Shown: piece by piece, positions 27,001 to 60,000 of the stretch | Layout of the letters: every line of letters starts with the position of its first letter | Position numbering within the stretch: position 1 is the first letter of the stretch | Source: Pocillopora damicornis | Taxonomy: Eukaryota | Direction: 5' to 3' | DNA length: 64,000 nt | Assembly: GCF_003704095.1 (NCBI RefSeq) | Contig: NW_020846005.1 | Coordinates: 558,001-622,000, forward strand | Made by a program: the position numbers

Positions 27001-30000
27001 TTTGAACTGAATCAAGAGCACACTTAGTCAGTAACTCTTTTGTCGCTCGGATTACAAGATACCCTAAATTTTTCATCTCCCAGCTCAACGAATGTAAGAC
27101 GAAAACAAGCTAAGTCACGGTTTGTGGAAAAAGAATCTAGCAATTTTACGAACTCATTGCATGCAATCCGAGTTAATCTTCTCCATCCTTAAAATTCCTT
27201 TTTTCATTTTAGCTTATAGTAATCTAATTGGTGCTTTACTATCTCATTTAAGTGTCAATCAATTTTTTTTCTCATAGTTGGGGTTGAGGTATCCGCGTGA
27301 TGTTACGCGTGGTAGGAAATTGCTCAACTGCCGTGACATAACTTCTTTTCACCAACTGGCCACATAAGGAATCACCACTTGGAGTCATTGTGTGCCTTAT
27401 TCACACATTCCAAAGATTGTCCCAGATACTTGATAAAATAGGTGATAATTTTACCGATAAGTGGTTTGTCGTACAAGGATGAAAGATTTGAAATAAAAGT
27501 GTCCTGTGGATCATGTTTAATGGCTGTGAAACCTTTGTGCTCCCCCACACAAGGGAGTGCTACTCGTATTCCTCCCAAAGGTATTCACCAAGGTCGAGGT
27601 CCAGTAAGTTGTCTGAAAAAAATTAGAATAAAAGATGCATTCATATAAACTAAAAACAAAACAAAACAAATACAGCTTTTAGGATTTCACCATAAGCCTT
27701 TCGTGATAAGAGATCAACAAATTAATGTGCGATCACTTTCAAGCAACATTTCAATGAAAGTTCAATTTTTTTTTCGATTTTTGCTTGAGGGACCGTTTAA
27801 GGTTTGATTGGAAGTCAACAAGAGCGGATCCAATCCGCGACAACTAAGAGAGGAAGTGTTAAAAATGATAATACATATTGTTTACATTAACAATGAAAAC
27901 CGAATTATTGTTAGTAAACATGTTTCAAAACGGACTACTGTTATCTTTGTACACATCATTCAATTCCCGAACTCACGGATTCATAAATATTTGCATTGAA
28001 AATTTGGAAAAAAAGTTCAACAACAATTTACACTCCGTCACGATATTTGAAAATGACGGACGAGAACTGTAAAACTATCAGACCTCCCAGATTTTCGAGC
28101 TGATGACACTTATCCCCGGCCCCCGTCACAAATAATTGAGTGAAAACTTCAAGGTGCATATGTACCTTCATTATCAGAGAACGAGTCAAAGCAGAATCGT
28201 GGAAGATTTGCAGAGAGACTCCAACCATCTTCAAATCCTGGAAGGCTTGGAAGTAGCTCGTCTGGGTTAATTCTTTCCAAACCTTCCGGTGTGTTCTCGA
28301 GAATCTCAGTCAGACAGGAAATGTATACTGCTGCCAGTCTGATGGTCTCCGTTTTGGAGGGTTTCTTCTCCCCAGGAAAAAGTGGAATTAGATCCCTCAA
28401 CCTCTCAATGTGTGCATTAAGGGTTTGCACGCGGCTCCTCTCACGTGCGTTAGCCATTCGTCTTTGTCGACTGACTCCGGTCAAACGAGGTCCTCGCCTC
28501 CTTGTTTTCTTTTTTCCTTGAGTATTGTCAGGTTTAGCCGCTATAGTAGTGTCCATGGCTGACTGCTGTGCTTGGTTGAACTGCTTGTAACTGATGTGAG
28601 TTTAAACTAAGGCGTGGAGATCGTTGAACGAGTTACTTATCGCAGCATTCCAGGGCTTGGCTTGTCAGCTGGGTTTCCATTTTAAGGAGACAACAGAACG
28701 GAACTCATCTGACACGATTATATAAAGTCCAGAAACATAAACACATGATATTATACAAGATAAGGCTTACTATCGCACTTCTGAATAACGTGTGGGTATT
28801 TCGTGCTCAATGTACATTCTTTCGACCGCATTTTGATCCATCCCACGCACAACAGCATCGTAAACTTCCTTTAACTGTTTATTTTCTTTAGCTACTCTCA
28901 CATTAAATAACGCCCTTTTTCTCGATTAAAGTAAATCGTGAATATGTCCCATTATGATAATGTACTGATGATGTGTGACTCGTGCATTGCGTCGAAAGAA
29001 GACCGAACTCCCTCATGCTATAATTGAAAAACACTTAAAGTTTGTGGTTATTATTTACTTCAAATGTGGATTTTAGTTAGGTCAATATTTCTAGCTTAGT
29101 GTATTAAGGTTTGGAATCATTTACATGCTCACCGTACCTGTGTGTCATCGCTGCTATGAGCTCCAGCCTAAAAAACTTGTGGGTTGATATGACATGACGT
29201 CACGACAGCCGTTCACAACAAACGCTCTCATCGTGCAAATGACTCTTTGACCTTTCAAAGTTTATTGTTTTTGCTCTCTTTTCGTACTTATTTGTTTTTG
29301 CTCTCTTTTCGTACTTATTTGCTTTAAAAACATCACACAAATGAAAGGGATTTGTATGCGTCACGTAAATTTCCACTCTTGAAATTTTGCGGGTTGGTTT
29401 TAGTCTACTTCAGCCGAAGGAAACTTATCCCCATCCGCCTTGATGATACTAGGGCCTAGTAAATTCTCATTCATGCATACGTTTGGAAATTATTTTCATA
29501 TCAAACTATGCTGATACCGAAAGATCGGTTCTAGTTTGGAGACAGTCCGTTGGTGGTTTGCTTGTAGGCTTTACTGAAACGAGCACTCAAATCGTTTCCA
29601 TAGGTTGCCATTTTGGCACTCAGTCAATAAAAGTAAAGTCATTGCATGTTTTGGAAAAAAGCTCTGCAGCCACGAACAAGCTGTAGAACATTTTGTGAGC
29701 ATTTGTGTGATGAAAACATTTGTTTGATCTTTCCGTGTAACACGCTTTAAATTTGAACCTAACAGCTTTCGCCACAACGTTTTGATTTATCTCAGTTTAT
29801 CTTTCGGAAATGAACAATATCCTGCATCATTAATCTGAATGATCCTTTATGGGAGATGTGTTTAATTAAGATCGGTGAGTTTGTGATATTACAGGTAACC
29901 TGGGAACTCAGACAAGAGGAGCCAATACTACGTAAAACAGATTCCCAGATAGCTTGATTTCGCTTAAAGGTTACCTTGTGTACGCCTACAAAAACACTGA

Positions 30001-57000: not shown

Positions 57001-60000
57001 TTGTTTAACGAAAACTTCGCTATTGCTAGCTGTGTGAGCATACAAACAATTATCTGAACAGTTCACCACTCAAGGCTTCTTTACATAATTTAAATAGTTT
57101 TACAGCTTATGTGACCCAACAAAATTTCTTTCCCTACAACACAGATTCTCAATTTTTCCTTTTCCAAAATTCCGGATCAAAATTGTTGCTGTCCTGCACA
57201 ATCTCACATTTTTCCTGAATTGTTTTTCTCCGGGTCACAACTGATGCCTGTGATGCAACGTTAATGCAAAACTAAAAGATCGAAAGAGATGCAGAGAGGT
57301 GTTCGGCGGCTATTATGATCCAAATGCCGTTTAATGAAAGTTACCTATAACACTCCACAGGGCATCAGTTCAGTATTGTTTATAATCTAAATCAAATTTA
57401 CCTGACAGTAAACAAAAACATGTCAACGAACATATCAATTTATCTACCAGATTACAAGAAGTTGAATTGTTTGAAGTTAACTTGAATTTGAGTGTTTGAG
57501 ACAAACCGTAAGCTCACCCAAGAAATAATTCATTGATCTTAACTATGTCCTTAGGAAGCCTCACTTGTGACGATCACAGCACTAGCTAAAACCGGTTCAT
57601 GACATGAACGAAAGGAACGGAGATATTAGAAGTCGATATTTAATGAGGTATTGGCCTCAAACAGAGAAGCTTACAATTATCAAGAACCCAAACACAACGG
57701 CTTGGTGATTTTCAATGAGAATAGGTATTTCATGGCTCTAATAAACAATATGTTAATTGGGAGTTATTTCGAGCGATATTTCGCTTGTTAGGGGCGTGTT
57801 TTCAGGGGTAACGTTCAATAACTATATGATTGTAGCCGATAACCTTGCGTTCCTTGACACAAAAACATTGCGCAAGTTTTCCAACTTTTGTTAGCCAGTT
57901 TCGCCGACAGAATGAGGTTCATTTTGGCTTCCCTTTCATGTAAAGGTGCAAAAATAATTTTAGAGCAAGTTTGAATGCAGAATTCTTCAGTGAAAACAAG
58001 GCACCCACGCTAACTCTTAGATCTATATTTTTATTTGACAATAATGCGCCTGCGCAAACATATTACTGGGTAACACCCAAATATCAATGATTTTTGTGCT
58101 TGAATATCAAGCAGAAATATTTCAATATTTTTAGCATATCGGTACCAGTCAAACTGTGTAATTCTAACAGCAATATCTATTAAGTAAGTAAATAAAGTAT
58201 TGCCTATGTGCCCTCGAAATTCATGCCATGCATAAATTTACAACAACTTGACCGAAGTAATTAATTGACATTACATTAATTTGCACCCAGTGATTCCTCA
58301 TTGTGAGGATAAAACGTTCTGTGTCACAAACATTCACTAAAACTCTTGCTATGAAATAGAAAATCAGTCCCATCAGTGATCAAGTTTGGACGCATCGTTA
58401 TTTTGGAAAGGCGTACGACTCAAAAAGACAATGGCGCACAATCTGAAAGAAAAGGAGAGTTCAATGTCAGCTCATCAATCATAAAAATTGATAAACATTG
58501 GGAGACAATGAATCACCGGAGTTCGACAAAAGCCTCAGTCTAGGAGATTGTGGCTTCGTTAAGTTTATCTGCTCGCAACAAGAAATTTTAAAGATCTACT
58601 AATTAACACTAGGCAAGATCAATGATTACGATATGTCGCTTTGTGATTACTTCACGACACGGTTCGCCTCTCTCAGAGGGAAGCCAAAATGCCGACTTCG
58701 GCAAAATTGATTTTGTCCACGCTATTTCTTGCAGATATTTCCTCACTAGAGAACGCTCAATACACCATAATTTCATACAAGAAAAGAATCAATTTGTTAT
58801 CAGCCCAAAAAACAATCTGATAAGTTGCACCTTACGGCGCACAATAGGAGAGTACTGATCCTGTCAGACAAAATGCATAAAGGTGAAGGCGGAATAAATA
58901 CTGTTTGGACAACCTTTAGCTCCTTCGCCCGCAAACTAAGCTTTTTCGGCTCCAGTTCACTAATTGGGATCTTATTTAAATGGGAAACATTATGCATGGT
59001 GTCTGATGTCGGTATATTACCTAAGGTAGAGTTATTTCTCCTGAAAAAGCATAACCTGGAGCCAGGGGTTCTCTTAATATTTTGTGAAACTAGACGAAGA
59101 TTACCGTTCACGATGTAAAACCTTAAAGTCATTAACAAGGCCTTTAAAAATGGATTGTTCTTTAAACGTCAATTTAAAAAGTCACTGGCTTACTTAGAAG
59201 GATTATGCCATTCCAACTGATTTGCATACACACCCTAAAACCTAACAGCCTACAACTCTCATTCCCTCCCATTTCTTTCAGCCGGTAACACCAACCTTCC
59301 AAATTAAACAGAGGGCTGTCATCTAAGCTATCCAAAGAGTCAATATCGAACATTTCAAGCTCAGCCTGCCACTGATCAGCAGAATCCAACATTTTGGTGA
59401 GCTCTGTGATGTAATCTACAGCTAACCATATCACTTCAGTCTTAGAAGGTTCCTTCTCCTGCGGCGGAAGAGGAATCATATGTCGTAATATCTGGATATT
59501 CATGTTTAAAATTTCAACCCGGCGTCTTTCACGTGCATTCGCCACCCGGCGCTGCTTGCTGACGCCTGTAAGACGTGGTCCACGTCGCCGGGGTTTCTTC
59601 TTGTGCTGCGGAATAACTTTTCCAATGGGTGCGACGTCCATTTCGCGGATGTGGCAGTGTATAACTTGTTTATCGACTGACACGATCGTATTATATCAAC
59701 ATATTTGACCAAAGGAGTGAAGCCACGCGCCGTCATGCCTTTTGAGTCTTTTGTAATTGCACAAAGGTATCATCAGTTCTATGTTTTAGAATATCGTACG
59801 TCAGTAGTGAGTCCCCTGTGGAGTTTGAGGGAACCTTGGATTTTTGTCCGAGCGACGTGTTTTTGTGATGCGTGAAATTACATTGTATTCCACTTTGTGT
59901 TACATGAGCAGATATGAAGAGTTCGTCATTAACTGTATCCATATTACTTTTCTCTGCATAGTTCAATCATTTTACGACACAGATCGTATCAAAAACTCCC

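What the first reader, a model, noticed from the sequence alone, without database searches (positions are those of the whole stretch)
28300..59540. Same DNA-reading helix, remodelled dimerisation surface: three or four HLH subtypes in one array
Seen: the helix-1 AF of group A bHLHs (N.AF..LR) survives only in copy 4. The others have HI, GI, HI, YI, EI, NI and NI. Helix 2 sorts the copies into IETVRLA (4), T(E/D)TIRLA (1, 2), TE(V/I)IW(L/M)A (3, 6, 7, 8; Arg to Trp) and FDVIVGA (5). The loop has KP(S/T)K-like sequence instead of KLSK. Known: these positions build the four-helix bundle. Inference: the paralogs may differ in partner choice (E-protein, Twist or each other), giving a combinatorial dimer code on similar E-boxes. 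The subtypes also record a duplication history with copy 4 as ancestral-like, a 1/2 pair and a Trp clade.
Basis: partly seen in the sequence, partly recalled or inferred. Interest (0 to 1): 0.7.

Follow-up and report, generated by a model that had tools for sequence, protein, structure and literature searches.

The report
Old bHLH gene array beside Twist
Eight old, diverged copies of a Twist-related bHLH transcription-factor gene (one of them broken) lie next to Twist, probably the counterpart of a muscle-specifying gene cluster described in a sea anemone; they keep the same DNA-contact residues and differ mainly at the edge of the pairing surface.

Summary
There are eight single-ORF bHLH genes at 28.1-59.6 kb. 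Seven are intact; copy 7 has an in-frame TAA. A Twist gene with a Twist box lies 18 kb upstream.

All nine DNA-contact positions are invariant in the seven intact copies.

The hydrophobic core of the dimer interface is more conserved than the rest of the helices, not remodelled. Variation sits at rim positions 15, 19, 22 and 55, plus a polar Thr at core position 51.

Synonymous sites are saturated and dN is 0.19-0.53. No DNA similarity survives outside the domain. The duplicates are therefore old and under purifying selection.

The split {1,2,4} against {3,5,6,7,8} has 95/93 support, but only 66/79 once the defining columns are removed. The 1+2 pair and a Trp-only clade are neither recovered consistently nor rejected.

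The closest described system is the anthozoan "Cni-PaTH" cluster of Nematostella (nem7/24/64 with paraxis and twist; PMC10060217). Orthology could not be tested.

Differential partner choice remains an untested hypothesis. This is a new member of a known kind, of moderate interest.

The parts
9402..9821 (+). Twist gene (139 aa ORF): bHLH followed by a C-terminal Twist box
   Evidence: Pfam HLH at 65 bits. An LX3FX3R match lies at residues 122-130, inside the last 20 aa; the motif is as described in PMC3045590. Thr follows RERxR.
28149..28556 (-). Copy 1, intact, 135 aa; HI / TETIRLA subtype; bHLH block 28296-28514
33925..34314 (-). Copy 2, intact, 129 aa; GI / TDTIRLA subtype; bHLH block 34048-34266
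42910..43275 (+). Copy 3, intact, 121 aa; HI / TEVIWMA (Trp55) subtype; bHLH block 42961-43179
   Evidence: The AF2 model of the block has pLDDT 88.3, with helices at 13-42 and 54-72.
46961..47440 (-). Copy 4, intact, 159 aa; AF / IETVRLA, the least derived copy; bHLH block 47063-47281
49832..50191 (-). Copy 5, intact, 119 aa; the most divergent copy (YI / FDVIVGA, loop without Pro); bHLH block 49919-50137
   Evidence: (end branch 1.44).
52807..53442 (+). Copy 6, intact; longest ORF 211 aa, real start probably the Met at 53029 (137 aa; inference); EI / TEVIWLA (Trp55); bHLH block 53068-53286
   Evidence: Its C-terminal tail resembles that of c8.
56437..56742 (-). Copy 7, pseudogene: in-frame TAA at 56584-56586 in helix 1; NI / TEIIWMA (Trp55)
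   Evidence: It also differs at 7 of the 26 columns that are invariant in the intact copies.
59174..59641 (-). Copy 8, intact, 155 aa; NI / TEVIWLA (Trp55); bHLH block 59384-59602
   Evidence: Sister of c7 at 87/89 and 88/83.

Best explanation
This is an old, lineage-specific tandem array of class II (group A) bHLH transcription-factor genes of the Twist/Paraxis/Hand superfamily, physically linked to Twist. It is most likely the counterpart of the anthozoan 'Cni-PaTH' cluster described in Nematostella.

Each intact copy has four parts:
- a Lys/Arg-rich run and a family-specific N-terminal extension (RRGPRLTGVSKQR);
- an unchanged E-box-reading basic region;
- an HLH with a conserved hydrophobic core and the conserved helix-2 Tyr;
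- a short, unrelated tail.

Inferred mechanism: all seven intact proteins bind the same kind of E-box half-site as dimers, chiefly with the broadly expressed E-protein. The paralogs have been kept for a long time because they are used in different cell types, as nem7/24 and nem64 are in anemone muscles. Their rim differences (positions 15, 19, 22, 55 and Thr/Ile/Phe 51) may tune partner affinity at most.

Shown here: the gene content, the conservation pattern, the age, the purifying selection and the linkage to Twist. Inferred: E-protein partnership, cell-type use and orthology to the Nematostella genes.
For: - Eight paralogs plus Twist are the only bHLH loci in the window. Pfam HLH is found in all 7 intact ORFs.
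- The best solved relative of c4 is TWIST1 (8osb_B, E 1.1e-11), then NeuroD1 and TAL1.
- The AF2 model of c3 is helix-loop-helix with pLDDT 88.3. Its best fold matches are class II bHLH chains: 2ql2, 2ypa, 7wz6 and 1mdy.
- 9 of 9 DNA-contact columns are invariant. 6 of 15 hydrophobic interface columns are invariant and the rest change conservatively. The helix-2 Tyr is invariant in all 8 copies.
- dS is undefined (saturated) in 24 of 28 pairs among the copies. The 4 defined pairs give omega 0.135-0.193, and dN is 0.185-0.525.
- No DNA repeat of 60 nt or more links the units.
- Passages of PMC10060217 say that nem7, nem24 and nem64 cluster with paraxis and twist on Nematostella chromosome 2 and branch in a Paraxis/Twist/Hand superclade. 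They also say the expansion is anthozoan-specific. nem64 knockout removes the tentacle retractor muscle, and e-protein knockout removes muscles.
- The Atlas's nearest cluster for c4 and c3 is automatically named 'Hand2-like' (0.97 and 0.94).
Against: - No sequence of nem7/24/64, paraxis, hand or any E-protein was available, so orthology and partnership are untested.
- The organism was not identified by any search.
- All seven intact copies have Val where the Twist family carries the phosphoregulated Thr. By that criterion (PMC2744367) they are not canonical Twist-family members.
- There is no expression evidence for any copy. The gene models are bare ORFs.
- Position 19, listed as interface in E47, has 6 different residues in 7 copies, and position 51 is polar in 5 of 7 intact copies. 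Altered pairing therefore cannot be dismissed.
Confidence: 0.62

Rival explanations
1. One reading: the interface subtypes (AF/Ile51/Arg55; HI-GI/Thr51/Arg55; Trp55; c5) encode different partner preferences for E-protein, Twist or each other. This would give a combinatorial dimer code on similar E-boxes.
For: - The variable positions map to interface or packing residues of E47: Ala565, Phe566, Glu568, Leu586 and Gln590 (mapped).
- Rim columns 15, 22, 55 and 65 have mean entropy 1.63 bits, and none of the 4 is invariant.
- In the Twist family, changing the charge at the start of helix 1 alters partner affinities, and Twist pairs with Hand2 as well as with E-proteins (passages of PMC2744367 and PMC3045590).
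- The review notes that a smaller residue than Phe at this helix-1 position in NeuroD1 packs less tightly.
- Twist plus c3 bHLH blocks gave weak support in the complex test: score 0.57, best control 0.01, 100% contact agreement, partner pLDDT at least 75. The mark was reached by 51 of 78 solved complexes and 2 of 108 mismatched pairs. At 0.60 or under, however, it was reached by only 5 of those 78 solved complexes and by all 4 mismatches that passed. Like complexes are solved (8osb), so the pass may come from memory, and it does not tell which family member binds.
Against: - The rim columns are no more variable than other non-core helix columns (1.63 against 1.34 bits, n=4). The interface as a whole does not differ from the rest (p=0.17).
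- The hydrophobic core and the helix-2 Tyr said to bond to E47 Glu600 are kept in all copies.
- Only one pair was modelled, so nothing compares the partners.
- Co-expression, which any code requires, is unknown.
Confidence: 0.2
2. Copy 4 is the paraxis ortholog rather than an ancestral-like member of the array. On this view the array is seven lineage-specific genes plus paraxis plus Twist, exactly as in the Nematostella cluster.
For: - The Nematostella cluster holds paraxis and twist together with nem7/24/64.
- c4 is the copy nearest to Twist, at 51% identity. It alone keeps AF, Ile51 and Arg55 together.
- No other paraxis candidate exists in the 64 kb.
Against: - c4 shares the array's own signatures that Twist lacks: the RRGPRLTGVSKQR extension, the Pro-containing loop and Val13.
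- Paraxis is shown with the conserved Thr/Ser, according to the Fig. 1 legend of PMC2744367. c4 has Val and Ala at those places.
- With the trait columns removed, c4 groups weakly with c2 (65/70).
Confidence: 0.25
3. Part of the array is decaying. Besides c7, the divergent c5 may be non-functional or may act as a poor-pairing, dominant-negative-like protein.
For: - c5 has the longest branch among the copies (1.44).
- It has Gly in helix 2 (FDVIVGA) and a loop that lacks the family's Pro and Lys.
- c7 shows that copies do die.
Against: - c5 keeps all 9 DNA-contact residues and an intact ORF.
- Its two pairs with a defined dS give omega 0.163 and 0.193, which argues for constraint.
Confidence: 0.12

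Closest known systems
Cni-PaTH bHLH genes of Nematostella vectensis (nem7, nem24, nem64), clustered with paraxis and twist (Cole et al. 2023, PMC10060217; passages read)
   Same: A lineage-specific group A bHLH paralog array physically linked to twist. The nearest solved relative is TWIST1. The likely mode of action is a class II bHLH with E-protein.
   Different: Here there are eight copies (seven intact) instead of three, within 31.5 kb. Orthology is untested. No expression or knockout data exist. The subtype differences at interface positions are not described in the passages I read. The paper's Supplementary Fig. 9 and Data 3 could not be opened and may already include coral sequences.
Twist family sensu Firulli (Twist1/2, Hand1/2, Paraxis, Scleraxis; PMC2744367)
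   Same: The bHLH sequence is closest to TWIST1 among solved structures. The genes are linked to Twist. The family is known for promiscuous, regulated dimer choice.
   Different: The phosphoregulated Thr and Ser just after the basic region are missing. Val replaces Thr in 7 of 7 intact copies, and none has Ser at the second site. There is no Twist box. The copies have an extra conserved N-terminal extension and a Pro-containing loop.
NeuroD1/E47 heterodimer (PDB 2ql2)
   Same: It gives the best fold matches. NeuroD1 also lacks Phe at the helix-1 'AF' position: it has Ala-Leu (alignment). The review reads this as looser packing.
   Different: It belongs to a different orthology family (the Atonal superfamily). 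The array has Ile rather than Leu, and bulky or polar residues at position 19.
Tandem bHLH paralog clusters in Nematostella and lophotrochozoans (Simionato 2007, PMC1828162; Bao 2017, PMC5381572)
   Same: Lineage-specific tandem clusters of 2-5 bHLH genes, including Twist paralog linkage.
   Different: Those papers, in the passages read, do not describe this array or its interface subtypes.

Membership tests
bHLH domain (Pfam PF00010) | Match above the curated gathering score | tested here: met
   7 of 7 intact ORFs score 47.5-70.5 bits against a cut-off of 20.7. Twist scores 65 bits. c7 was not scanned.
bHLH domain | Helix-loop-helix fold | tested here: met
   The AF2 model of the c3 block has pLDDT 88.3, with helices at 13-42 and 54-72. 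The top fold matches are all bHLH chains, although none of the 143 matches reaches E<=0.001; the best is 6.3e-3 at probability 1.00.
Group A / class II E-box-binding bHLH | Basic-region residues equivalent to the E47 DNA contacts (Arg548, Asn551, Asn552, Arg554, Glu555, Arg556, Arg558, Asn563, Lys585) | tested here: met
   9 of 9 mapped columns are invariant in the 7 intact copies. The residue list comes from passages of PMC8283981. E47 Asn551 corresponds to Ala here and in Twist. The group A label itself is recalled from Atchley and Fitch.
Twist family (Twist, Hand, Paraxis, Scleraxis) | Phosphoregulated Thr and Ser just C-terminal to the basic region, conserved in all members (PMC2744367) | tested here: not met
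   After RERxR the copies read VQT, VHV, VHA, VQA, VNI, VQN and VEI (intact) and APT (c7). The window's Twist reads TQA.
Twist proper | C-terminal Twist box with LX3FX3R (PMC3045590) | tested here: not met
   0 of 8 copies have the motif, whereas the ORF at 9402-9821 has it in its last 20 aa. Among the tails, only c6-c8 are similar to each other at 1 of 500 shuffles. c4-c7 gave 2 of 500 and c3-Twist 24 of 500, out of 36 pairs tested.
Cni-PaTH cluster (Cole et al. 2023) | Physical linkage with twist | tested here: met
   Twist ends at 9821 and c1 begins at 28149. All nine genes lie within 50.3 kb.
Cni-PaTH cluster (Cole et al. 2023) | Branches with nem7/nem24/nem64 inside the Paraxis/Twist/Hand superclade; anthozoan origin | not testable with these tools
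The organism was not identified.
Paraxis ortholog (copy 4 only) | Groups with Paraxis/Scleraxis in a tree | not testable with these tools
   No Paraxis sequence or solved structure was available (searches list none).

The most novel reading that the evidence does not exclude
The array holds at least three pairing classes fixed long ago: an ancestral-like AF/Ile51/Arg55 class, a Thr51/Arg55 class and a Thr51/Trp55 class. Together with the loss of the Twist-family phospho-switch (Val13), these classes hard-wire different partner preferences among E-protein, Twist and each other. On this reading, anthozoans replaced regulated dimer choice with a genetically encoded dimer code that specifies muscle or mesodermal cell types.
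Probability: 0.15. Interest if true: 0.65.

Novelty: new member of a known kind. Interest (0 to 1): 0.36.

Why it matters
If the array is the counterpart of the anemone PaTH cluster, it shows that this expansion is larger (eight copies) and much older than a recent tandem burst. It also shows that the paralogs have been held under constraint with identical DNA-contact residues. That makes it a compact natural experiment. One can ask whether bHLH paralogs diverge by expression alone or also by pairing specificity, since a handful of named residues (19, 20, 22, 51, 55 and Val13) can be swapped and tested. On present evidence it extends a published family rather than revealing a new kind of system.

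Tried and rejected
- Twist-box remnant in the copies' tails. The MAFFT alignment placed the 'EGW' of c8 and c1 under Twist's 'EGAW'. Tail-by-tail local alignments with 500 shuffles gave no support: c8-Twist and c1-Twist scored 16 and 15 and were not among the low-p pairs. LX3FX3R is absent from all 8 copies. Rejected.
- Recent tandem duplication. Rejected by the saturated dS and by the absence of shared DNA outside the domain. One search found one direct and one inverted repeat of 60 nt or more in 8000-64000, both unrelated to the genes.
- Independent confirmation of the subtypes by a tree without their defining columns. Only c7+c8 kept support (88/83). The five-copy clade fell to 66/79.
- Atlas look-alikes. 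They gave only an automatic 'Hand2-like' cluster name for both c4 and c3, with no discrimination between subtypes and no taxonomy.
- Literature. Gyoja et al. 2012 (the Acropora bHLH survey) is not held. Searches found no paper on this array in a coral.
- The spectral-analysis paper PMC2674655 gave no list of buried sites.
- Not attempted. All-by-all dimer modelling was not possible, because only one job was allowed.
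Full report
**What is there**

Under the standard code the window holds nine bHLH loci and no others. A tblastn of the seven intact array proteins against all 64 kb found only these. I do not take the window for human sequence, and it contains no N.

Twist is at 9402-9821(+). It has Pfam HLH and Thr after the basic region. It also has an LX3FX3R match inside its last 20 residues, which is the Twist-box motif described in PMC3045590 (passages).

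Eight paralogs follow, 18.3 kb downstream, spread over 31.5 kb in orientations - - + - - + - -:

| Copy | Coordinates | Strand |
|---|---|---|
| c1 | 28149-28556 | - |
| c2 | 33925-34314 | - |
| c3 | 42910-43275 | + |
| c4 | 46961-47440 | - |
| c5 | 49832-50191 | - |
| c6 | 52807-53442 | + |
| c7 | 56437-56742 | - |
| c8 | 59174-59641 | - |

Seven are uninterrupted ORFs that pass Pfam HLH.

c7 has one in-frame TAA at the helix-1 Leu codon. It also differs at 7 of the 26 columns that are invariant in the other seven copies. It is a pseudogene.

The 211-aa ORF of c6 probably starts at a later Met, at 53029. This is an inference from the alignment. No RNA evidence exists for any of the gene models.

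**The observation**

- The helix-1 dipeptide is AF only in c4. The other copies have HI, GI, HI, YI, EI, NI and NI.
- The helix-2 heptads are IETVRLA (c4), TETIRLA and TDTIRLA (c1, c2), TE(V/I)IW(L/M)A (c3, c6, c7, c8) and FDVIVGA (c5).
- The loop ends in [K/R/E]P[S/T]K in 7 of 8 copies and is one residue longer than in Twist.

Two further family signatures were not in the finding. Neither is shared with Twist.
- A strongly conserved N-terminal extension, KKKxKRRGPRLTGVSKQR, with 8 of 16 columns invariant.
- Val directly after RERxR in all seven intact copies.

**Where the changed positions lie**

A review of E2A structure (PMC8283981, passages) lists three sets of E47 residues:
- DNA contacts: Arg548, Asn551, Asn552, Arg554, Glu555, Arg556, Arg558, Asn563, Lys585.
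- Hydrophobic dimer contacts: Ile562, Ala565, Phe566, Leu569, Met572, Met575, Leu586, Leu589, Ala592, Val593, Val595, Ile596, Leu597, Leu599, Gln602, Val603.
- Extra packing residues, including Asp561, Glu568, Gln590 and Glu600.

I mapped these onto the array without gaps, using three anchors: the invariant Glu, the invariant helix-1 Asn, and the Lys and Ala of helix 2. This mapping is my inference. The position numbers I use follow the Atchley-Fitch scheme, which I recall rather than took from a call.

The I/T/F site is Leu586 (position 51). The R/W site is Gln590 (position 55).

**How the columns vary (7 intact copies)**

| Column class | Columns | Mean entropy (bits) | Invariant |
|---|---|---|---|
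| DNA contact | 9 | 0.00 | 9 of 9 |
| Hydrophobic interface | 15 | 0.74 | 6 of 15 |
| Rim / packing (15, 22, 55, 65) | 4 | 1.63 | 0 of 4 |
| Other helix positions | 20 | 1.34 | 3 of 20 |

- Hydrophobic interface against other helix columns: Mann-Whitney two-sided p=0.046.
- All 19 interface columns against the other 20: p=0.17.

So "same DNA-reading helix" holds. "Remodelled dimerisation surface" is too strong: the core is conserved, with only L/I, I/F, L/M, I/V and I/L/M exchanges.

The real departures are these:
- Position 19 has six different residues in seven copies.
- Position 51 is Ile in c4, Thr in five of the intact copies and Phe in c5.
- Position 55 is Arg, Trp or Val.
- Position 22 is R, R, N, T, I, V, I.

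The helix-2 Tyr is invariant in all eight copies. The review says a conserved class II Tyr bonds to E47 Glu600. That this Tyr is the array's invariant one is my inference; it fits continued pairing with an E-protein. The review also notes that NeuroD1 has a smaller residue than Phe at the AF position and packs less tightly. The alignment shows Ala-Leu there. Ile at position 20 therefore has a precedent within group A.

**Age and selection**

- Over the 73-codon block, Nei-Gojobori dS is undefined (saturated) in 32 of 36 pairs, and in 24 of the 28 pairs among the copies.
- The four defined pairs have dS 2.27-2.78 and omega 0.135-0.193.
- dN among the copies is 0.185-0.525.
- No repeat of 60 nt or more links the units.

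The duplications are old, and the intact copies are under purifying selection.

**Trees (8 copies plus Twist; no rows dropped; the c7 stop read as a gap)**

| Tree | Columns | Main result |
|---|---|---|
| Protein | 73 | {c3,c5,c6,c7,c8} 95/93; c7+c8 87/89; c4 basal with zero branch length; c1 and c2 form a grade |
| DNA, with Twist | 219 | {c3,c5,c6,c7,c8} 81/86 |
| DNA, without Twist | 219 | c1+c2 84/78 |
| Protein, trait columns removed | 64 | {c3,c5,c6,c7,c8} 66/79; c7+c8 88/83; c4 groups weakly with c2 (65/70) |

The trait columns removed are the nine that define the subtypes: positions 19, 20 and 51-57.

AU tests do not reject a c1+c2 clade (p=0.217, 0.512, 0.155). They also do not reject a Trp-only clade that excludes c5 (p=0.077, 0.203, 0.179).

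The subtypes are thus compatible with the trees. However, the strong support is partly circular, c5 sits among the Trp copies, and the domain is too short to settle the history.

c4 is "ancestral-like" in the sense that it shares AF, Ile51 and Arg55 with Twist and with solved group A proteins. It is also closest to Twist, at 51% against 32-44%.

The tails of c6 and c8 are similar (1 of 500 shuffles, 36 pairs tested). This fits their placement together.

**What it is**

- The best solved relative of c4 is TWIST1 (8osb_B, E 1.1e-11), followed by NeuroD1 and TAL1. Nine distinct sequences reach E<=0.001.
- A profile of A1 gives TWIST1 at 3.5e-22. That profile includes the window's own Twist row, which favours this hit.
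- The c3 block folds as helix-loop-helix with pLDDT 88.3 and pTM 0.58.
- Its best fold matches are NeuroD1, SCL, MyoD and MYF5 chains. None of the 143 matches reaches E<=0.001, as expected for a 73-residue query.

Passages of Cole et al. 2023 (PMC10060217) describe the following in Nematostella:
- nem7, nem24 and nem64 have no clear bilaterian orthology.
- They cluster with paraxis and twist on chromosome 2.
- They branch in a Paraxis/Twist/Hand superclade, named Cni-PaTH.
- The expansion is anthozoan-specific.
- The genes are expressed in different muscles.
- nem64 knockout removes the tentacle retractor muscle, and e-protein knockout removes muscles.

A Twist-linked array of Twist-like but non-Twist bHLH genes is what the window shows, so I file it as the probable counterpart. 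I could not test this.

Searches found no paper in the held library that describes this array in a coral. Gyoja et al. 2012 is not held.

**Membership caveat**

A review of Twist1 phosphoregulation (PMC2744367, passages and the Fig. 1 legend) states that a Thr and a Ser just after the basic region are conserved in Twist1/2, Hand1/2, Paraxis and Scleraxis, back to Drosophila. It also states that they control dimer choice.

The array has Val at the Thr site in 7 of 7 intact copies, and no Ser at the second site. By that criterion the copies, including c4, are not canonical Twist-family members. They cannot use that switch. Whether fixed residue differences took over its role is the boldest reading, and it is untested.

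**Pairing**

One complex job was available. I gave it the bHLH blocks of Twist and c3. The verdict was weak support.
- Score 0.57, best control 0.01, runs agreeing in 100% of contacts, partner pLDDT at least 75.
- The mark was reached by 51 of 78 solved complexes and 2 of 108 mismatched pairs.
- At 0.60 or under, it was reached by only 5 of those 78 solved complexes and by all 4 mismatches that passed.
- Like complexes are solved (TWIST1-TCF4, 8osb), so the pass may be from memory. It does not say which family member binds.

This shows that a Trp55 HLH is still read as dimer-competent. It shows nothing about preference.

**Verdict**

The feature is a real, old, constrained paralog array of a published kind. 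The dimer-code idea is reasonable and cheaply testable, but at present it has no evidence beyond the position of the variable residues.

**Elsewhere in the window**

- An open frame at 1881-2402(+) matches Pfam Lipoxygenase. I searched it as that single frame only and joined no exons.
- A tRNA-Cys(GCA) lies at 15624-15695(+).

Noticed in passing
window 1881-2402 (+): An open frame of 173 aa matches Pfam Lipoxygenase PF00305 (31.5 bits, E 9.1e-8, profile positions 523-569 of 673). It is probably one exon of a lipoxygenase gene at the left edge of the window.
   Followed up: partly
window 15624-15695 (+): A tRNA-Cys (anticodon GCA) lies between Twist and the array, at 71.4 bits in Rfam. A second, borderline tRNA-like match lies at 21128-21189 (-), at 29.8 bits against a cut-off of 29. 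ARAGORN did not call it. It sits between two 63-nt direct repeats at 21022-21084 and 21264-21326, so it may be a tRNA-derived repeat element.
   Followed up: partly
window block residues -15 to 0 of each copy (e.g. 28467-28514 in c1, 43 bases upstream region of each bHLH block): All eight copies share a conserved extension N-terminal to the basic region: KKKxKRRGPRLTGVSKQR, with 8 of 16 columns invariant in the intact copies. Twist lacks it. It is nearly as conserved as the DNA-contact residues. The AF2 model starts the basic helix inside it, at Gly13/Val14 of the block. Its role is unexplained; it could be a nuclear localisation signal, extra DNA-backbone contacts or a modification site.
   Followed up: partly
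window 53287-53439 (c6 tail) and 59177-59383 (c8 tail): The C-terminal tails of c6 and c8 share an acidic D-x-D-S-L ... L-F-x-L-(D/E)-G-x-C stretch. The local score is 46, reached by 1 of 500 shuffles (36 pairs tested). No other tail pair is convincingly similar.
   Followed up: yes
window 19124-19188 and 20151-20215: An inverted repeat has 65-nt arms that are 77% complementary and lie 962 nt apart, in the gene-poor stretch between Twist and copy 1. It may be the ends of a small transposable element. It was not examined further.
   Followed up: no
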